63,098 nt of DNA, filler included, from Pirum gemmata (GCA_002812295.1; 19 parts of 19 records of this genome joined end to end with filler, not necessarily neighbours in it), one strand, 5' to 3'. Counted from the whole stretch's first letter, positions 3,151 through 62,904 are shown. Translations and numbers: made by a program. The notes: a model not told the origin generated them from the letters alone.

Positions 3151-3250
3151 NNNNNNNNNNNNNNNNNNNNNNNNNNNNNNNNNNNNNNNNNNNNTTAATT
3201 AATTAANNNNNNNNNNNNNNNNNNNNNNNNNNNNNNNNNNNNNNNNNNNN
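3151..3250. other. Artificial contig linker (44N-TTAATTAATTAA-44N), first of 18
   Basis: The identical 100-bp spacer starts at 3151, 6399, 9619, 12835, 16027, 19254, 22512, 25702, 28918, 32119, 35344, 38562, 41807, 46967, 50179, 53426, 56640 and 59883. The 12-mer puts stops in all six frames. Confidence 0.98.
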
Positions 3251-4936
3251 ATATTAATATTATTATTCTCATTATTTCTTGACTTGAAAAAGTCTTCAAC
3301 AGATAATATTTTTTACTGTAAAGTTTTTATAGGGTTTTTATTTTATTGTTATTATTTTGTTTCATTTGTTTATTTATTTATGATCTATAGTATTTAAATG
3401 TATTTATTTGTTATTTTATTTACTTGAAAGAAAATATATCTTGTTATTATGATAAAATACATAATACATAATACATAATACATAATACATAATAAATGAT
3501 AAAATTTAATGATAAAATATTAATGATATTAATAAATGATATTAATATTATTAATAAATGATAAATGATAAATGATAAATGATATAATAAATGATTAATG
3601 ATAAATTATACTATAAAAGATAATTATAAATGATAAATATTAATGATAAATGATAAATAATAAATGATAAATGATAAATGATAAATTAAATGATAAATGA
3701 TAAATGATAAATGATAAATGTTTAATAAGAAATGATTAATATTAAATTTAAATGATTAATAAGTAACAAAAGTGCCAGTATTCGCACATTTTGGCCGCAA
3801 AAAGTGTCTATATATTTGTCACTTGGTCCCACTGATAAAGAAGTTTTCAATGGAAGACATTAGAAGAAAAGAAATGGTATTAAAATATCGTCGTTTGATA
3901 GTAATAATCAATGTATACGTAATTTGGAGGATAATTATGAAATGTATTATAATAATGATGTAGACGAAAATAGTAATTTACCAGGCAGAAAAAATATCTG
4001 AGGAAAAAATATTATCGCAAGGGTAAAAAAACCAGACAATATATCCATTCGGATTTTGCACGGACTTAAATTTTGTTATATTAATAGTATTAATATCATA
4101 ACAATTATTATTGTTACTGCAGCTGCTAGGGGTTTTAATTAAATTTTGTTAACGTTTTTTGTGTTTTCTATTTATTAAAATGTTGTTTGTGAAATGATCA
4201 AATTACAATTTTCGTCGCATCAAGTCCACAAAGTTGTTTTATTCAACCTCTAACTATGTGCCCCATGTGTAGTGTAGGGCACATGCTTCAAAGTTGAAGC
4301 TGACCCTGTCTCACCTAACCCAATTAATTGCAATCTTTAATAATAACTCACTGACCCAACTTTTAGCTACCATATAAATTATAAATAGTTGAAGGTCCAA
4401 TAAAATGAAAATTTGAAGACGCTATGGTAACTATAGTATTGTATAATATACTGCTAGTAATATACTGCTACATACTACTACTACTACTACTAAACTACTA
4501 TTAAATTACTAATAGCTACAGTACTAGCAGTATCGAAAATATTATTATTACTATTATTATTTATAAATAATTATTATTATTATTTAAATATTATTATTAC
4601 TATTAATTATTATTACTATTATTATTTATTACTATTATTATTTATACTGTATTACTATTTTGATATTAAAATTTTATTACTATTATTAATATTATTTATT
4701 ACTATTGTTATATTTATTATTATATATTATTATTTATTACTGTTGTAATTGCTATTTTGTGTTATTGATTTTATTTATTATAAAAATTGTAATAATATAA
4801 TTTATTCTTCTTTTTTTTTATTTATGTAAGCAAACACGAAAAGCTCTATGTAAGAATATATATATTGTACGAAAAGTCCTTTTCATTAAATTTATTAATT
4901 AATTAATACTTGGTTTTTATTATTTCTGGTTTAATT

Positions 4937-6058
4937 TTAAAGCAATGTGCACTTGTCTGCATCGTCATTAACACCTTCCTCCGGTGGTGGGTCAGGTAAA
5001 TACTGCTTCATAACGACGGCTATTAAAGTATATACACAAACCCAAGCATCCTTCAAATCATCATTCCAATTATTCCCCTCAGCAATACTTAATACTGTAA
5101 TCAACACTTGACCGGTAATAAAAAACTGACCAGTATGACATCCGTATTGTCTATGCCTGACCGATAAAGTGGCCAAGTTAGGAATTAATTTAGTTAAATC
5201 ATCTAATACTGTTATACAGTTACTTATCATAGAAACAAACATTGTACTTTGTATATGTGGAGAATTGGTAACGAATAAAGCTTTAAGAGCAGGTACTGTT
5301 TTAAATAATTCTTCGTAAAATATATTACCTACAGTCTGGGCGTCAAACTTACTAGTAATACGACTCCATGATTCTTTGATGGTTGTTGAAACTTTGGAAG
5401 AAAAACGAGGAAACGAATTCAGTTTCATCATTTTTAAAGCTTCTTGTTTAGCTTCTTCAAATATGAACTGGCTAATTTTTGAGGAAGACAAATTTTCTTC
5501 CACCAATTTTCTAGTTTTCTCTGATAAATTAACTTGTTTAGGGGATTTGGAATCAACAAAAACATCATAAATGTTTTTAGCGGACCTGAGTCTTTTTTCT
5601 TTGTTTGTTAAAGCTTCATAATCTAGAACAGAAGAAACAAACTCCATATTTTCAGCATTGTATTCATATTCTAAAAAATTCTTTAACACATCAAACACTT
5701 CACGGCTACTAAAAAGAAACAGAAAAGGTTCCTTTTCGTATTCTTTACTGTCGATTAATCTTAGCTTTTGATCGGTCATCGAGTCACTTTTACCCGATGA
5801 TGATCTTTTTGTTAGATGAGAACCAGATAGTCGTTTTAAACTTTTAAGAGTCCTGTTTCTTTCTCTCTTTCTAGGTACTACCTTTCCATTTTCTTGAGGA
5901 AGATGCTCGGTGGTAACAAACTCTGGCTCAAGTTCTGATTCATCTGTATCAGTACTATTACTACTAGTCATACTATGATTAGTAAGTTTTCCATTGAGTT
6001 TGGAATCACGAGTGTGGAAATCCTGATTAGACATTTGAACTACACCTGCAGAAGCCAT
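4937..6058 (-). CDS. RGS domain-globin domain fusion protein with C-terminal CaaX (CTLL), 373 aa
   Basis: aa ~112-220 RGS box: F-L-E-x-E-Y-N-A-E-N-M-E-F, AKNIYDVFV..SPKQVNL, FEEAKQEA..MM..NSFPRF. aa ~222-354 globin: IKESW (A helix), IFYEELF..VP..KALF (B10 Tyr, CD1 Phe), Q270 (E7), LSVRHRQYG (F8 His302), W.DDLKDAW..Y..IA..M (H helix). Ends CTLL-stop. Confidence 0.9.
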   Translation of the reverse strand: MASAGVVQMSNQDFHTRDSKLNGKLTNHSMTSSNSTDTDESELEPEFVTTEHLPQENGKVVPRKRERNRTLKSLKRLSGSHLTKRSSSGKSDSMTDQKLRLIDSKEYEKEPFLFLFSSREVFDVLKNFLEYEYNAENMEFVSSVLDYEALTNKEKRLRSAKNIYDVFVDSKSPKQVNLSEKTRKLVEENLSSSKISQFIFEEAKQEALKMMKLNSFPRFSSKVSTTIKESWSRITSKFDAQTVGNIFYEELFKTVPALKALFVTNSPHIQSTMFVSMISNCITVLDDLTKLIPNLATLSVRHRQYGCHTGQFFITGQVLITVLSIAEGNNWNDDLKDAWVCVYTLIAVVMKQYLPDPPPEEGVNDDADKCTLL

Positions 6059-6498
6059 TTTTTATAAAGTATTAACTTACTTATGATAAACAATTCAAAT
6101 TATTTAAAAAATATATTTACTTCCTAACTAAATAATTCAAAAAATTTTTAAAAAAATAAATATATAATTTTTCTTTTTTTTTTAAATTTATAAATCATTT
6201 TTTTTATTATATACCATGGTATGTATGTATTCGGCCATTTGGCGAAAATAATTTTTTTTTAAAAAACAAAAAACACACAAGTGACTGTAACTCATACCTT
6301 AGTCAACGGAGTGTCAACGGTCAGTCATATGATATACCAATAATAAACGGCTAAAAACTGAATAAACGCAATTTCTTTATTATTATTATTATTATTATNN
6401 NNNNNNNNNNNNNNNNNNNNNNNNNNNNNNNNNNNNNNNNNNTTAATTAATTAANNNNNNNNNNNNNNNNNNNNNNNNNNNNNNNNNNNNNNNNNNNN

Positions 6499-10290: not shown

Positions 10291-10650
10291 TTAATAATAA
10301 TAATGTATGTTTTTCTTTTTAGCGTTTAAAGTACCAGTTCGTCTATAGTAAAATCCGCAAGTATTACAAAGGGAACCTTTTCCATTTGGTCCTGGTCTCC
10401 AAGTACAAGATGAGGTAATTCCACAATGCTCACATGGTCTTTCTGATCTATGAATTAAATTTTTAGATGTACTTTTATGTTTTCTGCTTTTCTTTTTTGC
10501 CATTAAATGTTTGAAGGTATATTGTATTTGAGGTGTTTCTAATAAAGTTATTAGGTTACTGTTCTCATTAGTACTTTCAGTTTTAGTATCCCAAGGTCTC
10601 CAGAAGTTTAAAGTTTCATTGGTTCTCATTTGGCAAGTTACTTGGCACAT
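10291..10650 (-). CDS. Small GATA zinc-finger transcription factor (C-X2-C-X18-C-X2-C)
   Basis: CEHC-GITSSCTWRPGPNGKGSL-CNTCGFYYRR with the W-R-x-G-P and L-C-N-x-C-G signatures and basic flanks. Confidence 0.85.
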   Translation of the reverse strand: MCQVTCQMRTNETLNFWRPWDTKTESTNENSNLITLLETPQIQYTFKHLMAKKKSRKHKSTSKNLIHRSERPCEHCGITSSCTWRPGPNGKGSLCNTCGFYYRRTGTLNAKKKNIHYYY

Positions 10651-10856
10651 GGTTATTTTTATTTTATTATTATTATAATTGTTAACGTTATTGTTGCTGT
10701 TATATAATATAAATAAAATATATACATATGTATATATTATATTATTATTATTGTTGTTGTTTTATTTTTTTACTTGTTTATTGTTTCTATTGTTTTTATT
10801 GTTTTTATTGTTTTTATTATTTTTGTGTGTTTTTTTAAAAAAAGAATTAATTATAA

Positions 10857-38887: not shown

Positions 38888-41677
38888 ATGAATAATAATT
38901 TTAACGATAATAATCAAGAAGAAGAAAAACTTAAATATTATGATAAATTAAGAAGGAGAGAGAGAAATATCATGTATTATCATCGAATACTAGGTCATTT
39001 AAGTATAAAAAGAATTAAGTTAATGTTAGATAGTGAGATTACGAAAACGTGGTCTAACGAGAAAATAGAGTGTAACATTTGTAGATGGGCAAAAATGAGA
39101 AAAAAAACAGTAAGGAGAAAAAAGAGCAATAAATTAGAATATAGTAAGGTAGGAGAAATGTTAGTAGGAGATTTATGTGGGCCATTTCCTGAAGATTTAG
39201 AGGGTTATAGATTTTATCTATTAGTTAAGGACAGGTTATCTAGATATGGTTTCATTAAGTTTTTAAAAAAGAAAAGCGAATGTAGTGGAGAGTTATTTAA
39301 CGTATATAAGCAATTTTTTGATAGAGGTGTAAGAATTAAAGAATTTCTTAGTGACATGGGGGGTGAGTTTGATTGTGAAGAGGTTAGGGAATTACATAGA
39401 AACATGGAGATTGAACACAAGTTTACACCTCCATACCTGGAAGGATGGCGTGGTTTGGTAGAAAGAGGCAATGGTTTGCTGCATGAAGTTGCTTTAGCAC
39501 TATTAGCTGATAGTGGTTTAAAGTTTGATTTGTTTTGGAGATATGCATATGAATCAGCTATGCTTTTAGTTAATGTAAGGGTAACTGCAGAAGAAAAAAT
39601 TCCATATAAAATTTTTAATAATAAATCTTTTGACTTTAGTGTTTTAAAATATCCATGGGGGTCAAAATGTATGTACCATTTTAGAACCAAACAAAAGAGA
39701 ATTAAGAGTAGGCCTGGAATATTATTACTACCTGCTAATAGTGTGATTGGTGATACATATAATATTTTTTCCATAGAAAGTAAAGTTGTGATAATTAGTA
39801 GAGATTTTAATATATTGAATGATGACAACTTAACTAATAATGAATTATATGGAGATTTAAGGACAATTTTTCAAGGGGTAAGTGGAGAAAATTTAATGAA
39901 TAAATATGATATTAGTCACCCTAATTTTGAGTATTTGAATGAAGACAAGAATAAAGAATATGTTAAATCAGTAGATGGCAATTGGTACTATTATGAAAAA
40001 TTTAATGAAGATAATAATTCATTTTTAATACATGATAGTAATTTTAATAGTTATACTAATAATTGTTATGTTAATAGGAGTGGGGATAGTAGTAAAAATT
40101 CTACAATAGTGGATTGTGGAAATGGCTATACATTACCAAAAAACGTGTTTCAAGTTAAAAATTGTGAGGATAAGAGTGATTGGTATAAGGCGATAGAAAA
40201 GGAATTAAAAAGTTTAATGGTTGATTATGAATGTTGTGAGATTTGCGAGAAACCTGTGGATAGAGAAATAATGCCAACACATTTGATATTGGATGTTAAA
40301 CGTGATGGAGATGGAATACCGATAGAGAGAAAAGCTAGGGGGTGTATTGGTGGTAACTACCAGATACCTGGTATTGACTATGACAAAGTGTCATCACCGG
40401 TGTTAGGAAAAGAAGTAACGATATTATTATTTATAATAGCCCAAAAATTGCACTGGATAATTGTAGCGTGTGATATTGTAGGAGCTTTTTTGTCATCTGA
40501 TATTGATCGGGATATATATGTAAGACCATTTCCCATGTTATGGTTGATTGGTATTGACGTAAAAAAGAATCAGTGTTTAAAATTGAAAAAGGGTGTGTAT
40601 GGTACTAAACAATCGGCGCTATTATTTTATAATTTGTGTGTATCAGTTTTAACAGGGATGAATTGCATCAGATGTTTGAGTAATCCTTGTTTATTTTATA
40701 GAGAAGGGGCGATTGTAGGTTTGCATGTTGATGATTTTCACGGTATATTTGAAAATGAATCTATAAAAAATGAATTTGTATCGGAACTGGAGTTGAGATT
40801 AAAGGTTAAGTTTGCTAAGTTTCCAGATACAATGGTAGGATTGAAAGTGAACAGGAGAAAAGATAACTCTATCTTGTTAAATATGCCAGGAAAAATTGAG
40901 AGATTGGTGAAGGAGTATGAATTGGAAGAAGTAAAAAAGCAACGGGTACCATTAAAGGTTTCTCCATATGAGGTCAGTGGTGAATTATTAGGTGATTATA
41001 CAGTATACCAGCGGTTGTTAGGGCAAACAGGTTTTATTGCTGGTATGTGTAGGCCGGAGATGGCAGCTGGTCAAGGAATGCTTAGTACTTATAACCATAA
41101 ACCGACGACTGCACACTTTAAATTGGTATTTGAAGTTGCATTGGTTGAGTACTGAGTTAATGCCTGCTGACATTTTGACGAAGATATTTCCTGAAGGCAG
41201 AAATTTGTTATTGATTCGTATGGTGACTCAAGTTTTATGTCGAATCCACTGAATTCTAAAAGTCGTAGTGGTGTGGTAGTCAAAGTTAATGATTGTACAA
41301 CAATGTGGTGTAGCAACTTGCAATCGTTTATTTGTGACAGTAGTACAGGAGCAGAATACTTTGTGTTAAATGAAGCTTGTAAAAGTATGCAATATATTCA
41401 TAATGTCTTAGAAGAGTTGGGTATGAATGTAGTTGGTCGTAATGTCTATACAGATAACCAGGCTTGTTATCGTTTGGCTGATGATTTTAGTTCAAATAAG
41501 AGAATGAGGCACATTAATCGGAAATTTCATATGGTTAGGGAGTTAGTTAATAACAAATATTTGAAGTTGCATTGGTTGAGTACTGAGTTAATGCCTGCTG
41601 ACATTTTGACGAAGATATTTCCTGAAGGCAGAGCGTCGGAGTTTGAACGGAAGAGAGAATGTTTAGTTGGTAATTAA
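38888..41677 (+). mobile_element. Ty1/copia pol: integrase, RT, RNase H (interrupted at 41127-41201)
   Basis: H..LGH..C..C zinc finger, GDLCGP, SDMGGEF, ERGN (integrase); KARGC.GG.Q, DIVGAFL, LKKGVYGTKQS, LHVDD (RT); YGDSS, STGAEY, YTDNQA, ADILTK (RNase H). IN-RT-RH order is copia. Confidence 0.95.
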
Positions 41678-51248: not shown

Positions 51249-53288
51249 ATGAGTAATATACCCCCTAAACTTCAAACAGGTTCACAAGTAGTGATGTTGT
51301 GGTATAAAGTTGATGAAAGGGAAGCACAAAGAAGATTTGGAAGTAAGTATAAAGAAGCTTATTTGCAAGGTGAAGTTATAGGGCAACATACAAAAGAAAC
51401 AAAAACCAGAAAAGAGTGGTATGCAACGGTTCTGTTTGTTTCCTTGAACAATAAAAGGAAAGACTTTAGCGGAAGAGTATTGAAAACACTTGATGAACAT
51501 AACCAACAACAGCAACAACAGCCAATAACCTTAACAGCGACAGCAGCAGCAACAACAGCAACATTAGCAACAGCAACAACAACAGCAGCAGAACAGCCAC
51601 TTCATAACCAAATACAAAAACCACATCAGCAGCAACAGCAATTCCAACTACAGCAACAACAACAGCAACATGAACAGCAACAACCGTAACAGCAACAACC
51701 GCAACAGCAACAGCAACAACAGCAACAACTACAACAACCTTCTTGCGATTGTAATGCAAATGGTGTTGGGTGGAAATTTGGTGATGTTTTGAATGATCAA
51801 CGTACGAATATATTACCATAATGCCACCTGGAGTATCAATGGATACGGTGTTACTTTTACACCGGGAATGATACTGAATATGAAACACAGACATACTTTT
51901 ATTCAATGTTTCCAATGAATTATTTAGAAAAAATAGTAAATTTGACAAATTCTAAATTAAGAAGCAACAATTCTAAACAAACCACTCCAGATGAAATTAT
52001 AAAATGGTTTGGAGTAACCCTTTTAATAACAACTGTAGAATATAGTAGCCGTCGTGATCTATGGAGAGAGTTAGAGGAAGAATATTATTTGCTACCTTTA
52101 CCTAAGCTCGGTAGGTTCATGTCAGTAAATAGATATGAGGAGATTTTGAGTAAATTAACAGTTAGTGAACAATTGGATTATGATGAAATTGAAACCGATC
52201 CAAACATTGATGTAAGTACGATAAGATGGTCTGCAATACAAGAACATAAAAAAAATAACATTCATCCAGGTCAAAACTTATGCATAGATGAGTCAATAAG
52301 TAGGTGGTATGATTTAGGTAATCAGTGGTTGGAGAGAAGGCCTGAAAATGGGGCAGAAATTTGGACACTCGCTGATGGTGATGGTGTGTTTATACTGAGG
52401 TTGGAAATCGTACAATCAAAAGAGGATACGAATCCACTAAAATATTCTGATAGGTTTAACCACGGTACCGCATGTACATTACGATTGTTAGAGCCATGGT
52501 TTCATAGTAAAAGAGCGATATATGGTGACTCTTTCTTTTCTAGTTTTCCTGGGTGCAAAGCCTTACTGGAAGAATTCAGGCTTTACTATACTGGCCCTAT
52601 TAAAACTGCTACACGAGAATTCCCATACAGTTTCCTCAGTGAAGTTGAACTTGAAGGAATAGGATAATGGAAGAGTATGAAACACACCTCCGAGAAAGGA
52701 TTTACTTATAGCGCAACTGTTTACGCTGATAGAAATAGACATTACTTTGTAAGCTCACATGGTACAACTGATGAAGGGATTCCTATCAAATACAATGATA
52801 TAGTCGATAGACATAATCGTAGGAGGCAAGATGCTTTAAATATTGAAAAGAAACTTGAGTTTAAAAATTGGAAAAACAGAATGACTTCGACCCTTCTTGG
52901 TATTATCTTCGTAGATTCTTATTGTCTTTATTCAAAAACAGTTGATTCAAGGGCCTGTACTACTCAAAAAGTATTTATGAAAAAACTAGCGAGAGCTTTA
53001 ATTTTTAATACGTATGATAACATAACCACAAGAGAGAGAAATATTGTTATTAGAAGTAATGGTGTAATTGAATTTGAACCAAAGTTAAAAATGAATATGA
53101 AGAAACAATCGAGGAAAAGAAATAGCAACGTAGAATATTCTGAAACAATAAGGCGTATGTGCTCTGTATGTAAAGTCAAAAATCGTAAGACAAGATTCCA
53201 TTGTTCACTTTGTCATAAATATATTTGTAGTACCCACTCGAATAAGGATTGTTTCATCACACATATTAATACAGAGCATAATAATTAA
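51249..53288 (+). mobile_element. Decayed piggyBac-like (PGBD) transposase
   Basis: MSVNRYEEI, LCIDES, YGDSFFSS, YNDIVDRHN (three catalytic Asp regions) and a C-terminal RRMCSVC..KTRFHCSLC.KYIC..CF..H Cys-rich domain. Broken by frameshifts, deletions and an in-frame TAA at 52665-52667. Confidence 0.88.
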
Positions 53289-54012: not shown

Positions 54013-56287
54013 ATGAATGTAAATACTTCTACACGAATTTAACACTTCTAATATACATATTATTTATTTAATAAAAGGGAAAGTATGAACCTGGAGCTGC
54101 TCGTATACCAAGTGTATTTGGAATTCCCCAATTCTTTACAGTAAATGAAACCAAAGCTTTTAAAAAAACCAACCCATTAGTCCCAGATATCCCCTTTGCT
54201 TTGTATGATGGTAATTTGGGGTTAGAGTTCAATGGCACAAGTTTTCCTCGATTATTGTTTCGTGTTTCTGAAGTAGAAAAAGCCATTGTTCAACACGTCA
54301 CTCCTCTAACTGTTGGGAATACCACCCTACCAGCTTTGGCCTGGATACAACAAAAAGTACGTTTTGATTCTTACGATGATTTTCTGAAAGTGTCGTTTAC
54401 TCCAGCAGAATTAGCTATGCCTACCTCTGATCAAAAAACAGTCATCGATTTACATGACCGCATGTTTTCTGATAGTCAAACTATGGAAGAAAATTTTGTA
54501 CAAAGTTTATTCTCCTCTATACCTTTTAATGGTATATTAGGATTTCGAAAACTTGGACATGGTTATTACCCATACCAGGAAGACTATGATGTACTTGTTA
54601 ACGATTTTGGTATTGATAAAGAAGAGGCGTATGAATATTTAAATTGTGGATTGTATTATTTAATAGATACTGAAGACATTGGACAAGTGAAACCAAGAGA
54701 TGTTGGTACGCTTGACGCTTCGTTGTCAATTGGTGCAAAAACTTTGTTGAAGCGAAATAAAGTTAATAATCTTATACCACTAATGATCAAAGTTACTATG
54801 TTGCCCAGCAGGGAAGACGATGCTGAACCTTATGTAAGACTTTATTCTAAAGAGACCAGCACAGATTCAGCCTGGAGATTGGCAATGTTAGCTGCAAGAT
54901 CATCTTTTACACAATGGGGTATCATAGGAGGGCACTTTTTACCTTTTCACATTACCGTTTCTGCCTTTCAACAAGGTATTTACAATAACTTAGCTCCTGA
55001 ACACCCTTTGCGAGAAGCTATTTCTCCATTCTTATTGTACAGTATGCAATGGACTAATTTTGCATTGTTGAATATTGGTCAATTGTACGGATTACCTTAC
55101 CATAATACTGCGCCAAGACAAGCTAACTTCCAAGGGGTTTTTAAAACATGGAATTCTTTGTACGAGGAAAATCCGTTTAAGAGTAAGTTTTATTATTATT
55201 ATTATTATTACTATTACTATTTAAGAATGCAAAAAATCAATTTAACGTCTATATATATATTATGTATACATTATATCATTATTATTTAATAATATAATAT
55301 TATATATATTATACTTATATTATATAGTATTATTATTTTTTTATTATTATAATATCATTATGTTTGATTATTATCTTTGTTATTATTATTATTATTATTA
55401 TTTAATATATATGTATCTAATATTTTGATTATTATAATATTATTCAAAAAGTAACAAACACAAATGTCCATAATAATATTATACCAATAATATAATATAT
55501 TTACTTACTTGTTAATTATTATTATTGTTATTTTACAGAACAACTTCCTTCCGATTTCTTGGGTAATCGTGGTATTCTACAAGAAGACTTCAGCAACAAA
55601 AAACCATGGGATATGATGCCACTTGCTGATCTTGGTGAAAAAACAGAAAAAATAACCAACGATTTTGTTACCAATATCATCGAAACTCTATATAACTCTG
55701 ATGAAGATATTGTTAACGATGTACAACTTCAAGCTTTCTTTCAAGATGCTAAAGATCCTCAAGGTTTGAATATGGGAAATCTATTACCTGGAAACCCTGA
55801 CAAAATATCCACGAGAGTAGAATTGGAAAGAATTCTTGGAACTTATTTTTACTTAACCACAACACACTCTTTTAGTAGGTTAAACGATTTTAGTGAGGGT
55901 GGTCACACCGTGCCTTTTACCATCGCTGCTTTTAGTTCTTTTGATTTCATTAAAAATGATGATAAAACTACTCATTATGACGAACAACAAATTATTAATC
56001 ATATGCCACCTTCTCATTTATGTGGAGGTTTGTTACAGTTAACTTATTTCTTTTTGTATACAACACCCTACGATAACATGGGTGATGTGGACAACGAATA
56101 TACTACCGGTATTAGTGAGTTATATACTAATGGAGAAAATGATGCTGTCAATGCTTCATTAAAGGAAGGTTTGCTTGTGCTTCAAGGTGAAATTAGAAAA
56201 ATTATCAAAGGCGAAGTCGGACCTGACCGACCCAGCAAAGATGTGGAGTTTAATTTGGGTAGAATTCCAAGAAATAGCGAAAGTTAA
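54013..56287 (+). CDS. Divergent lipoxygenase, ~619 aa (exons 54013-54018 tentative, 54078-55182, 55539-56287)
   Basis: AWRLAM...GHFLPFH (H-x4-H)...L.PEHPL, LPSDF..RG, Y.SDEDI.ND.QLQAF, T..EL..IL..YF.LTTTH, IPRNSES C-terminus. Intron 55183-55538 (GTAAGT..CAG) joins in phase 1. Confidence 0.85.
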
Positions 56288-58013: not shown

Positions 58014-59145
58014 GTTACGTAAAATAGGAACCCCCCAATTAAACGTGAAGCTCGGTCTTAAACTAGGTATTTATGTTGCTGTTGCATTTATAAATTTAAC
58101 TGCATTCAACTATTCGATAGTTTTTTATAATATAATCAATAAAAATAATGATTATATGAACAGCAACAATAATACCCATGTTTTTGATGAAAATAGTAAG
58201 CCTCACGATAACAACCACACAAGTGATACGTTCGACCATTCTAACCAATCAGAATCATTTTTACATCCTATTTTGGCCTTCCAGTTAATAGTTTTAGGAA
58301 ATTTTGTTCTTTTTGTTTTAAAATGGCTACCGGATTTTTATCGTTTTTTGATTGCGCTGTTTTTGGGCTGGGAATTTGAGCCATGTTTTGATAACCCCGA
58401 ATGGTCGACTAGTTTGGTAGAATACTGGGGTAATAAGTGGAATCGACCTATTAATTATCAATTAAAGTTTTTTATTTACAAACCCTTACGCCAATTAAAG
58501 AAAACTGTTTTTACTAAAAATAATGAGAAAAAAGAAATACATTTGGTAAGTGGTTCCACTGCCTCGTTATTAACTTTTGCTGGATCAGGTTTGTACCACG
58601 CTTACCCTGTTATTTGTGGGTTATGGAGTATTGATGTACAAACCGCTTTTGTAAATGGTGTGTACATGTCTATGTATTTTATTTTTGAAGGTATAGGATT
58701 ACATTTACAAGGACTAGTTTACATGCACGATAAAAATCATAACAACCCTCGTATTATGAGTCCCTATTTGAAATGGGTTAGCACGTTTGTATTGGCCACT
58801 CTTCCGGGACCCTTTTTTTTGTTACCGGTAAAAAAATTGTTGCAAATTGAAGGAGACATTGAAGTACCAGACCAAGAATTACTTTCAGGGGAATTTTGGA
58901 AATGGTGGTTAGTTGGTATTGTATTTCAAGTGCTGATTTTTTCTATAGTTCGTTATTTTATGGTGGTTCGGGGAGCAAGTGATGATGTTCTTGTTATTGA
59001 TGAAAAGAATAAAAAGAAAAATACAACAACACAAACTCCCAAAACACCCTTGCAGAATGTATTGGAAATTGAAAAAAAAAACCTCAACGAAGAAACCAAG
59101 AATCCAACAAATGGAGGTTCAAGCGAAAAAATTAAAATTGAATAG
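58014..59145 (+). CDS. MBOAT-family acyltransferase (wax synthase-like), large last exon; start not identified
   Basis: PCFDNP..STSL.EYWG.KWN and TF..SGLYH (catalytic His) motifs, several TM segments; aaacag acceptor at 58013 with the frame open from there. Confidence 0.85.
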
Positions 59146-59882: not shown

Positions 59883-60534
59883 NNNNNNNNNNNNNNNNNN
59901 NNNNNNNNNNNNNNNNNNNNNNNNNNTTAATTAATTAANNNNNNNNNNNNNNNNNNNNNNNNNNNNNNNNNNNNNNNNNNNNATTATTATTATTATTATT
60001 ATTACTATTATTATTACTATTATTATTACTATTACTATTACTATTACTATTACTATTATTGTTATTATTATTATTTCACTGCTATTATTATTTTTATTAT
60101 TATAAGATATATAGCAATTATTATTACCCCAACCCAAACCCTAACTCCTGATTCTTAACTTTCATTGTTAACGTTTATTTATTCAATTGAATTAAGCTTT
60201 ATTAGATTATATTTAACTGTTGTCTAAAAAAGAAAAAGCATGGTAGTTATAATTTCATTTTTTTATACTAAAACTCTAATGCTTTACTGAAATTATAGAT
60301 TAAAATTGTTCCAAAATACAAATTGGTTATTTTGTTCTAGCCAGTTGACCGACTGGTGAATGAGCAACACCGCTTTTATTTAAGTTGGCGGTTTTGATTT
60401 TGTCACAGTGTTAACTGTGCTACTTCTGTAAATAATAGTGACTCTGAATTTCTCCCCAGTTCCACGGGTAACCCTGACTTGGGGAAGTCAACGATAATGC
60501 TGTCGCTGTATATATGTGTTTCTGCTGCTGTTGC

Positions 60535-61546: not shown

Positions 61547-62904
61547 GGTAAAGTTGTTGTTGTTGGTAAGGTTGTTGTTGCTGCTGTTGTTGTTGTTCGA
61601 ATTCATACTTTTCTTGTTTTCCCCTTTCTGTGGCTTCTTTCTGTTGCCTTTCTTGTTGTAATTGTAATTCGTGTTGTTTTTTTAAGTTATCAAATTCGTA
61701 TTGTTACTCCTGCCTTCGCTTTTTTAGTCGTTCGAGCTCTTCTTGCTTTTTGAGTTTTTTTTTTCTTTTAATTTCTATTTCTTTTTCTGTAAGCTGTTTT
61801 CGTTTTTTCTTATTCACAGGTTCTCCACTTTGAAAACTGTATTGATATTGGTTTTCCATTTGATACGTTCTAGGTTTTTTTTCCTTTTTTTTTGGTGGTG
61901 GTGGTGGTGATGGTGGTTTATTATGTCCGTAAATCGAAAAGTCAATTATACGTTTTATTAAACTGTGCTTTTGACCTGATTTTTCTAACTCTAAAGCATT
62001 TAATATATTCTTCAAGTCTTTAACAGTAATATCTAATAATATATCTTGATCCTCCCTTAATTTATGCAATAACGTGGTTTCTTTGAATAAAAATTTTAAA
62101 ATTTTTATGTCATTATTGGTAGCAGCCCATCCCATAGACAACACGCAATCAAATTTTAGAACTTCGAATTTTTTATTACTCACCGCAAAATTCAAAGCTG
62201 TGTCAATACAACCTTCGGAACGATGTTCGTGTAAATATTTTACCACCTCCACGTGCCCGTTTCGAGCTGCCCAGGTCATGGCAAATTCTGAACAACCTTC
62301 TGAACGGTGTTCGTCAAGAAATTTAACTATTTCAAGATGACCGGCTTCAGCGGCAAAATCCATTGCATTTCTTGTACAACCTTCTGTTCTGTGATAGTGA
62401 AGGAACTCGACGATAGCCATATTGCCCGATTGTGCTGCTATATCCATTGATATGGGAGTAAATCCTTCTATTAATAAGTTAGAGTGCAGTTTAGTATAAT
62501 TACAATAATTGGGGTATTTGTAAAGTAAGTTTCTATATTATATATACAGATGGCGTTGTGAATTTTAGACTCATAAAGTCTAATTTATAATACAAACGTT
62601 AGCATTTCAAACAACAAAAATTTTAATATGTATGAATATATAAATATTTACTTGTATCTTTAGAAGTGTAGAAGGCTATTAGCCCCATTTGACCTTTTCT
62701 GATAAGCCGTGTAATTTGTTCCGATGGTATTTGAACATTTTCCCACTGCACATCGAGGCGTTTCTCCAGAACCCATAAGGCTGCATCACCAAACTCGTTA
62801 ACTTGCTCTATCGACCAAGTAAATTTCAATATTGATTGACGAAGGTACTCATTTTGAAATACCACCCGACCGAATAAATTAGGATGTTGTAAAAATGTGT
62901 TCAT
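61485..62904 (-). CDS. Ankyrin-repeat + SAP-domain protein with poly-Pro, basic and poly-Gln tail (exons 62904-62652, 62467 onward)
   Basis: Repeats MD.AA..GH.E.V.FL.EHR.EGC; SAP-like ITVKDLKNILNALELEKSGQKHSLIKRI. Phase-1 intron 62651-62468. In-frame TAA at 61706-61704 is followed by continuing coding-like sequence; downstream 60420-61483 is Q-rich coding-like but misassembled. Confidence 0.75.

What the first reader, a model, noticed from the sequence alone, without database searches (positions are those of the whole stretch)
4937..6058. RGS-globin-CaaX fusion: candidate heme/gas-gated off-switch for heterotrimeric G proteins
Seen in sequence: one intronless ORF with an RGS box (aa ~112-220, keeping E-N at 136-137, the Asn of V-N-L at 177 and S-F-P-R-F) running with essentially no linker into a complete 3/3 globin (W231, Y248 B10, F262 CD1, Q270 E7, proximal H302), then CTLL. 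Established: RGS domains are GAPs for G-alpha; TyrB10/GlnE7 globins bind O2, NO and CO; CaaL directs geranylgeranylation; globin-coupled sensors normally drive MCP, cyclase, phosphodiesterase or kinase outputs. Inference: a membrane-anchored sensor in which heme ligation state tunes GAP activity through the continuous RGS-to-A helix, giving receptor-independent O2/NO control of G-protein signalling. I do not know of a characterised protein with this architecture, but could not search for one.
Basis: partly seen in the sequence, partly recalled or inferred. Interest (0 to 1): 0.92.

Follow-up and report, generated by a model that had tools for sequence, protein, structure and literature searches.

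The report
Lipid-anchored RGS-globin fusion, candidate gas sensor
This gene, likely from a single-celled relative of animals, joins a G-protein switch-off domain directly to a haemoglobin-like domain and ends in a lipid-anchor signal, and its product would likely let oxygen, nitric oxide or redox state tune G-protein signalling, a design listed once before but apparently never studied.

Summary
Observation confirmed.

It belongs to a family of at least 33 distinct proteins from ichthyosporeans (closest: Pirum gemmata, 64%), rhizarians and a stramenopile. The family's geometry is fixed: the RGS Arg167-equivalent lies 13 residues before globin Trp A12 in all 45 of 55 units that could be mapped independently, and AlphaFold2 predicts one shared helix. 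The family has Met at globin E10 (34 of 40, against 9 of 111 other globins), where the closest solved globins have a Lys that can bind the iron. 18 of 33 members end in a CaaX or a membrane helix.

The RGS4 Asp163 position is Asn here and often Gly in relatives, so GAP activity is not assured. Heme binding, GAP activity and coupling are all untested. Best reading (0.45): a prenylated, heme-regulated G-alpha GAP. I found no paper that studies one.

The parts
4937..6058 (-). Intronless ORF, 373 aa: RGS-globin-CaaX protein (P0001)
   Evidence: covered without gaps or differences by one contig of run X1
5759..6058 (-). N-terminal region (aa 1-100), mostly predicted disordered, with a basic patch at aa 59-78 (net +8) that the three Pirum relatives checked also have (+9 to +10); a possible second membrane-binding signal
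   Evidence: pLDDT under 50 for aa 1-68 and 77-89; charge scan; the role is inference
5396..5734 (-). RGS domain, aa 109-221. Keeps Y133, E136, N137, N177 and R218 (RGS4 Y84, E87, N88, N128, R167); has Asn214 at RGS4 Asp163; the last RGS helix is not separate from the globin
   Evidence: model against RGS4 (1agr_H): Z 17.4, rmsd 1.6, 111 residues aligned
5348..5416 (-). Predicted shared helix, aa 215-237, running from the RGS S-F-P-R-F motif into globin helix A
   Evidence: AlphaFold2 helix H201-237 in the full model and 215-237 in the core model; spacing 13 in 45 of 55 units, 10 not mappable
4997..5395 (-). 3/3 globin of the flavohaemoglobin-like single-domain type, aa 222-354: Trp A12, Tyr B10, Phe CD1, Gln E7, Met E10, Phe E11, His F8, Cys FG5, Phe G5
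   Evidence: model against Hell's Gate globin I (3s1i_A): Z 18.8, rmsd 1.4, 131 residues aligned
5240..5242 (-). Met273 at globin E10, the family signature; candidate displaceable sixth iron ligand
   Evidence: 34 of 40 family domains against 9 of 111 other globin hits; aligns to the E10 Lys of HGbI and HGbRL; the role is inference
5153..5155 (-). His302, proximal heme ligand (F8)
   Evidence: His in 38 of 41 non-redundant units
4940..4951 (-). C-terminal CaaX motif CTLL (Cys370), predicted geranylgeranylation
   Evidence: Cys at -4 in 13 of 33 family proteins against 5 of 121 other hits; the CaaL rule is recalled knowledge

Best explanation
The gene encodes a single protein with an RGS domain, a globin and a CaaX end, and it likely works as a prenylated, heme-containing GAP for a heterotrimeric G-alpha subunit whose activity would be tuned by the ligand or redox state of the heme. 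SHOWN by sequence and profiles: the two domains, the absence of a linker, the retained heme-pocket and most G-alpha-contact residues, and conservation of the design across distant protists. PREDICTED: one rigid two-domain unit. RGS helix 8 runs straight into globin helix A; from alignment ranges only, globin helix H appears to take the place of the last RGS helix and RGS helix 1 the place of the extra N-terminal helix of bacterial globin sensors. INFERRED: (1) geranylgeranylation at Cys370, helped by the basic patch, puts the protein at the membrane beside G-alpha. (2) Heme b is held by His302, and bound O2 is stabilised by Tyr248 and Gln270. (3) In the unliganded or ferric state Met273 (E10) may act as a sixth ligand, and O2, NO or CO would displace it and shift helix E. 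(4) The shift would pass through helices A and H to the RGS lobe that carries E136, N137, N214 and R218, changing G-alpha binding or GAP rate. The direction (gas on or gas off) cannot be told. Rough odds: heme binding 0.9, prenylation 0.85, acts on G-alpha 0.75, activity depends on heme state 0.6; the Met ligand step alone about 0.3.
For: Both Pfam domains pass their cut-offs. The model matches RGS4 and HGbI at rmsd 1.4-1.6. The core model has mean pLDDT 89.2 and pTM 0.82, with no segment under pLDDT 50. Spacing from the Arg167-equivalent to Trp A12 is 13 in 55 of 55 units by joint alignment and in 45 of 55 by separate profiles built without family members, the other 10 being unmappable; a flexible tether would not be expected to keep its length at about 25% identity. 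His F8 is kept in 38 of 41 units, and the distal pair is mostly Tyr/Gln (17) or Phe/His (11), which looks like a working pocket. 17 of 41 units, from all three named lineages, keep E-N, N and R together, and 16 of those keep His F8. Met E10 is in 34 of 40 against 9 of 111; PMC11203436 (passages) says the closed form of HGbRL has its E10 Lys on the iron. 13 of 33 proteins end in CaaX and 5 in a hydrophobic helix. No reductase domain is present, and Tyr G5 of flavohaemoglobin-like globins is Phe in 28 of 40. In one search the HemAT, AfGcHK, DosC and other sensor globins align from model residue 13-19 (RGS helix 1) to 258-262, and SNX13, SNX25 and axin RGS domains reach model residues 250-264 (globin helix H). 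Precedent for O2 control of G proteins through RGS: ADO and the N-degron pathway (PMC10506105, abstract and opening).
Against: No biochemical datum exists for any member. RGS4 Asp163 is called essential for GAP activity (PMC11259961, passage), and D163N and D163G are listed as predicted loss-of-function variants (PMC11065749, passage); the query has Asn, and the family has Gly in 20, Asn in 7 and Asp in only 5 of 41 units. 24 of 41 units have lost at least one of E, N, N, R, yet 22 of those keep His F8, and one protein (P0130) keeps the RGS residues but lacks His F8, so the halves can decay separately. A fixed helical junction can reflect folding alone. Met E10 may simply pack on the heme, and it could be one inherited change counted many times. 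13 of 33 proteins show no anchor, though several are fragments. The models hold no heme and no G-alpha, and domain packing was read from alignment ranges, not coordinates.
Confidence: 0.45

Rival explanations
1. Co-localisation without allostery: the RGS domain is a constitutive GAP and the globin an independent membrane-bound scavenger or buffer of NO or O2. The fusion only keeps the two together near G-alpha.
For: Tyr B10/Gln E7 and the closest solved relatives (HGbI, Vitreoscilla haemoglobin, flavohaemoglobin) are of the kind known for NO handling (recalled). The halves decay independently in relatives. PMC4081604 (passages) notes that membrane association is known for some globins.
Against: The junction length is fixed and the folds overlap. 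There is no reductase domain. Tyr G5 and the H23 Glu of flavohaemoglobins are absent (their role is recalled), and Lys E10 is replaced across the family.
Confidence: 0.24
2. Reverse direction: the RGS domain is a weak or dead GAP that binds activated G-alpha as an effector or scaffold. G-protein activation then controls the globin's chemistry (NO removal, nitrite reduction, superoxide or peroxide output).
For: Asp163 is replaced in 36 of 41 units. De Mendoza 2014 (section 11) says that some RGS domains lost GAP activity and act as scaffolds. Tandem members often carry a degenerate second RGS with an intact globin.
Against: The query keeps Y84, E87, N88, N128 and R167 equivalents. Human RGS2 has Asn at this site and is still a Gq GAP (recalled, no call). 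Stand-alone RGS domains among the hits also vary at this position.
Confidence: 0.15
3. It is a sensor, but of heme supply, redox potential, pH or lipid rather than of a gas; the heme state would set the folding or stability of the whole unit.
For: HGbI, the closest solved globin, changes between six- and five-coordinate heme with pH and lipid (PMC11203436, passages). The protein is predicted to sit at a membrane. Cys at FG5 lies next to the heme in the query and in 10 of 41 units.
Confidence: 0.14
4. The fusion is an assembly or gene-prediction artefact, or a pseudogene.
For: The window is a chain of short pieces joined by artificial spacers. Transcription was not shown by a run on record as RNA.
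Against: One uninterrupted ORF inside a single piece; a contig from a separate study is identical across it; the same fusion occurs in 33 distinct proteins.
Confidence: 0.02

Closest known systems
/RGS//Globin/ and /Bactofilin//RGS//Globin/ architectures (de Mendoza et al. 2014, PMC3971589, supplementary figure S6)
   Same: Same domain order. The survey included Pirum, Abeoforma and Amoebidium, which hold relatives of this gene, and bactofilin-RGS-globin proteins are among my hits.
   Different: Only row labels in a figure; the main text has no mention of globin. I could read the labels but not the cells, so I do not know which species were marked. The text I saw says nothing on the CaaX, the shared helix, Met E10 or function.
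Globin-coupled sensors of bacteria and archaea (HemAT, DosC/YddV, AfGcHK)
   Same: A heme globin fused to a signalling output; this is what the protein likely works like. Their globin domains align to the model at Z 13-14.
   Different: They use S-family globins placed before the output domain and signal as dimers (recalled). Here the globin is closest to single-domain F-family globins, follows the output domain, and the output is an RGS domain.
Hell's Gate globin I and HGbRL (globin-Roadblock/LC7) of Methylacidiphilum infernorum
   Same: Best sequence and structure matches of the globin (E 1.4e-15 and 1.3e-10; rmsd 1.4); Tyr B10/Gln E7.
   Different: Bacterial; Lys at E10, Leu at E11 and Tyr at G5, where the query has Met, Phe and Phe; no RGS domain and no lipid-anchor motif.
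Canonical R4-type RGS proteins (RGS4, 5, 8, 16, 2) and their O2 control by ADO and the Cys N-degron pathway
   Same: Best matches of the RGS domain. In animals O2 controls RGS4, 5 and 16 (PMC10506105, abstract).
   Different: There O2 acts through a separate non-heme enzyme and protein degradation; here the putative sensor is a heme in the same chain. The query starts Met-Ala, not Met-Cys, and has Asn at Asp163.
syNOS (globin-NO synthase), androglobin and other chimeric globins
   Same: Globin fused to another functional domain. syNOS appears in the fold searches through its globin.
   Different: Different partner domains; none of the 50 rows listed or aligns more than 192 of the roughly 250 core residues.

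Membership tests
RGS domain (PF00615) | Profile match above the curated cut-off and RGS fold | tested here: met
   63.7 bits against cut-off 23.9; Z 17.4, rmsd 1.6, 111 residues aligned to RGS4
Canonical GAP-active RGS (R4 type) | Y84, E87, N88, N128 and R167 equivalents | tested here: met
   Y133, E136, N137, N177, R218
Canonical GAP-active RGS (R4 type) | Asp at the D163 position | tested here: not met
   Asn214; Asp in 5 of 41 family units
Canonical GAP-active RGS (R4 type) | Speeds GTP hydrolysis by a G-alpha subunit | not testable with these tools
   needs an assay; no G-alpha of this organism was available
3/3 globin, F (flavohaemoglobin-like single-domain) family | Helices A-H, Phe CD1, His F8, closest to single-domain F globins | tested here: met
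3/3 globin, F (flavohaemoglobin-like single-domain) family | Binds heme b and diatomic ligands | not testable with these tools
   residues are present; binding was not measured or modelled
Flavohaemoglobin | C-terminal FAD/NAD(P)H reductase domain | tested here: not met
   only RGS and Globin are found, and the protein ends 19 residues after the globin; relatives named 'hemoglobin-like flavoprotein' that were scanned also show none
Globin-coupled sensors (HemAT/DosC type) | N-terminal S-family sensor globin followed by the transmitter domain | tested here: not met
   the globin is C-terminal; Pfam gives Globin, not Protoglobin; F-type globins score Z 18-19 against 13-14 for sensor globins
Globin-coupled sensors (HemAT/DosC type) | Output activity depends on heme ligand state | not testable with these tools
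   needs an assay
Globin-coupled sensors (HemAT/DosC type) | Homodimer through the globin domains | not tested
/RGS//Globin/ architecture of de Mendoza 2014 | PF00615 followed by PF00042 in one protein | tested here: met
CaaX prenylation substrate | Cys four residues from the C-terminus, conserved in relatives | tested here: met
   CTLL; 13 of 33 family proteins, plus P0170 and P0171 found later; the modification itself is untested

The most novel reading that the evidence does not exclude
An old eukaryotic family of globin-coupled sensors, shared by ichthyosporeans, rhizarians and stramenopiles, in which a Met(E10)/His(F8) heme switch drives a G-alpha GAP through a shared helix. It would give protists direct, receptor-independent O2 or NO control of heterotrimeric G proteins: the job that animals do by ADO-triggered degradation of RGS4, 5 and 16.
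Probability: 0.22. Interest if true: 0.88.

Novelty: new variant of a known kind. Interest (0 to 1): 0.62.

Why it matters
No heme sensor that acts directly on a heterotrimeric G protein turned up in my paper searches. If heme state sets GAP activity, this is a one-protein link from O2, NO or redox to G-protein signalling, in relatives of animals and in two other protist supergroups. It bears on how unicellular ancestors of animals sensed oxygen before HIF-type systems, and would parallel the ADO/N-degron control of RGS4, 5 and 16. The core is about 260 residues, predicted well folded, and testable with standard spectra and GAP assays. A Met at globin E10 acting as an iron ligand would also be unusual globin chemistry. 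If the domains prove uncoupled, it remains an unstudied, conserved protist globin family, now mislabelled 'hemoglobin-like flavoprotein' or 'nitric oxide dioxygenase' in metagenome annotations.

Tried and rejected
Gene neighbourhood: rejected as evidence. The window is 19 pieces, mostly about 3.1 kb, joined by 18 identical spacers with stops in all frames. The gene's piece (3251-6398) holds no other ORF of 100 aa or more.

Whole genome: none is held, so the organism's G-alpha genes and paralogues could not be examined.

Expression: no RNA holder listed. Run X1 is RNA only by the tool's guess; a control with an intron-containing gene could not be completed, so transcription stays open. That X1's contig stops 44 nt past the stop codon, where DNA run X2 goes on, is at most a weak hint from one study.

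An RGS/G-alpha model was not possible for lack of a G-alpha sequence.

Metagenome loci of relatives: two scans found none (425 and 76 pattern hits, none confirmed), so there was no DNA for dN/dS or intron comparison.

ESM Atlas: no usable hit for the whole protein or the core. Word-indexed searches found 4, 5 and 3 proteins; the family came mainly, which lists only 150 of 3114 hits.

Single origin: the quick tree (151 globin domains, 144 columns) did not recover one clade; it needed 5 changes against a shuffled mean of 35.7. A tree holding 39 rows together scored 78.7 log-likelihood units higher, p-AU 0.933. For that test I dropped the two long Amoebidium rows and added fragment P0082 after seeing the first tree, so one origin is not rejected, but not shown.

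No solved structure covering both domains appeared among the rows listed.

Papers: two searches for RGS2 selectivity residues found nothing, so that point is recalled. Anantharaman et al. 2011 (PMC3396428), the survey most likely to discuss this architecture, is not held. Term searches inside PMC7475203, PMC8717448 and PMC4081604 found no 'RGS'. My search term 'globin' does not match 'hemoglobin', one search listed 30 of 150 papers, and supplementary file 1 of PMC3971589 was not searchable.

Full report
1. The observation. The finding is a real ORF on the minus strand, 4937-6058, 373 aa; the plus-strand frame is full of stops. An in-frame stop lies one codon before the ATG, which follows an A-rich stretch. 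The ORF is 34% GC in flanks of 20%. Pfam finds RGS at aa 116-220 (E 2.6e-17) and Globin at aa 247-348 (E 2.3e-11). The best solved relatives are Hell's Gate globin I for the C-terminal half (E 1.4e-15) and RGS16, 5, 2 and 8 for the N-terminal half. One contig of run X1 covers 4893-6110 with no differences, and run X2 also crosses the junction, so the fusion is not a join error. X1 is RNA only by the tool's guess, so transcription is not shown.

2. Surroundings. The window is a chain of 19 short pieces joined by 18 identical spacers, so neighbours say nothing about this gene. No genome is held. The closest named relative is a Pirum gemmata protein, 64% identical over aa 105-373 (species name). 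The host is therefore likely an ichthyosporean, a group that de Mendoza 2014 reports to have 22-119 RGS genes (section 11).

3. The family. The 150 best of 3114 hits, with cluster members and other proteins fetched up to then (164 in all), were screened with a core profile. 55 RGS-globin units in 42 proteins passed; these are 41 units in 33 distinct clusters, the query included. P0080 has both Pfam domains but failed my coverage filter, and P0165-P0171 came later and are not counted. Named sources are Pirum gemmata (4), Abeoforma whisleri, Amoebidium parasiticum, Leptophrys vorax (2), Plasmodiophora brassicae, Paulinella micropora and Chrysoparadoxa australica (2); placing the last four species in Rhizaria and stramenopiles is recalled. 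The rest are unnamed. Variants include tandem two-unit proteins and bactofilin-RGS-globin. 13 of 33 end with Cys at -4, against 5 of 121 other hits; 5 more end in a hydrophobic helix, 2 have a Cys nearby and 13 show nothing, several being fragments. In the globin tree the query groups with the Pirum proteins (support 95). The family is strongly clustered but not resolved as one clade, and a single origin is not rejected (p-AU 0.933; two long rows dropped and one fragment added after seeing the first tree).

4. Anatomy. AlphaFold2 on a 23-row alignment gives a disordered N-terminus and a confident core with one helix from aa 201 to 237. The core alone (aa 95-358, 27 rows) has pLDDT 89.2 and pTM 0.82, with a one-residue break at Asn214 and a helix over aa 215-237. 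RGS4 aligns to model residues 111-223 (rmsd 1.6) and HGbI to 219-352 (rmsd 1.4): the domains share residues. The distance from the Arg167-equivalent to Trp A12 is 13 in 55 of 55 units in the joint alignment. With two separate profiles built from no family member it is 13 in 45 of 55, and 10 could not be mapped. In one search, bacterial sensor globins align from model residue 13-19 to 258-262, and several RGS domains reach residues 250-264; RGS16 does the same. This suggests that RGS helix 1 sits where sensor globins have their extra N-terminal helix, and that globin helix H fills the place of the last RGS helix.

5. Heme pocket. His F8 is kept in 38 of 41 units and Phe CD1 in 40; the B10/E7 pair is Tyr/Gln in 17 and Phe/His in 11. 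The family marker is Met at E10: 34 of 40 domains against 9 of 111 other globin hits, most of which have Lys or Arg (members are related, so this is not 34 independent events). M273 aligns with the E10 Lys of HGbI and HGbRL. PMC11203436 (passages) reports that Tyr29 and Gln50 hydrogen-bond bound O2 in HGbI, and that the closed form of HGbRL has the E10 Lys on the iron. A Met there could be a displaceable ligand, as Met95 is in the PAS sensor EcDOS (recalled). Tyr G5 is Phe in 28 of 40 family domains but Tyr in 82 of 111 others, and there is no reductase domain; both argue against a flavohaemoglobin-type NO dioxygenase.

6. G-alpha face. The query keeps the equivalents of RGS4 Y84, E87, N88, N128 and R167; 17 of 41 units keep E, N, N and R together. 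The Asp163 position is Asn214 (RGS16 E-K-D-S-Y-P-R-F against K-L-N-S-F-P-R-F), and Gly in 20 of 41 units. PMC11259961 (passage) calls N128 and D163 essential, and PMC11065749 (passage) lists D163N and D163G as predicted loss-of-function variants. RGS2 has Asn here and is a Gq-selective GAP (recalled; two searches found no paper). So altered selectivity or weak GAP activity are both possible. The position sits at the start of the shared helix, where a globin-driven change would arrive.

7. Mechanism. Best reading (0.45): a geranylgeranylated protein at the membrane whose heme state, through Met E10, helix E and helices A and H, changes G-alpha binding or GAP rate. Rivals: tethered but independent domains (0.24), G-alpha controlling globin chemistry (0.15), sensing of redox, pH, lipid or heme supply (0.14), artefact (0.02). 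The separate decay of the two halves in relatives is the main sequence evidence against tight coupling; the fixed junction is the main evidence for it.

8. What is known. An earlier scan note (e1-9988565) pointed to de Mendoza et al. 2014. I checked it: /RGS//Globin/ and /Bactofilin//RGS//Globin/ are row labels in the supplementary figures (file 3, part 2), and the main text has 0 occurrences of 'globin'. I saw passages, section 11 and that supplement text, but not the figure cells or file 1. Five library searches and term searches in three globin papers found no study of such a protein; Anantharaman 2011 was not available, and most subscription papers are not held. It works like a globin-coupled sensor but fails membership of that family (globin type and domain order). 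It is an RGS-domain protein that fails one canonical GAP residue, and it is not a flavohaemoglobin. The nearest functional parallel is O2 control of RGS4, 5 and 16 by ADO (PMC10506105, abstract and opening).

9. Verdict. Real, conserved and unstudied, but already catalogued as an architecture and seen before by this scan in other genomes. New here, as far as my searches reach: the fixed 13-residue junction, Met E10, the Asp163 change and the CaaX branch. Novelty: new variant of a known kind. Interest 0.62.

Noticed in passing
window, 18 places from 3151-3250 to 59883-59982: Identical spacers (44 N, a 12-base motif with stops in all frames, 44 N) split the window into 19 pieces, mostly about 3.1 kb; gene order in this window is artificial.
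   Followed up: yes
window 19422-22280 (-): A second RGS gene on another piece: 952 aa, mostly Asn/Gln/Pro repeats, with a C-terminal RGS domain interrupted by a Gln/Pro-rich insert; weak Pfam RGS hit, E 3.1e-5, on its 3' part.
   Followed up: partly
P0034 (hit; not in the window): 1169-aa protein with three globin stretches and a polycystin/ion-transport channel domain; it groups with 13 other long multi-globin proteins in the tree. A possible globin-gated channel family.
   Followed up: no
P0123, P0077, P0005, P0006 (hits): Other globin fusions: globin-PH domain, globin-cytochrome b5, and polyproteins of 12-14 globins.
   Followed up: no
P0030 (Abeoforma) and P0130 (unnamed): Family members without the proximal His (Pro in P0030; Phe and Gln in the two units of P0130), likely heme-free variants.
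   Followed up: partly
P0157 (member of P0014's cluster): A 118-aa fragment filed under the beetle Zophobas morio clusters at 90% with a metagenomic RGS-globin; likely contamination by a protist.
   Followed up: no
P0003 (Pirum): Its C-terminus repeats most of its own globin almost letter for letter and lacks a CaaX; probably an assembly or annotation duplication.
   Followed up: no
window 22799-25345 (-), 38888-41674 (+), 51822-53288 (+): Mobile elements: RNase H plus integrase (gypsy-like), integrase plus RVT_2 (copia-like), and a DDE_Tnp_1_7 transposase split over two ORFs.
   Followed up: no
window 54075-56287 (+): Lipoxygenase-like gene, weak Pfam hit E 3.4e-4 below the cut-off.
   Followed up: no
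window 32380-34690 (+), 30694-32095 (-), 14087-16078 (-), 10291-10761 (-), 58156-59145 (+), 61704-62537 (-): Other genes: an intron-containing proteasome alpha-like gene and a GATA-type zinc finger ORF (both recognised from memory, not scanned), pectinacetylesterase, VWD protein, MBOAT and an ankyrin-SAP protein.
   Followed up: no
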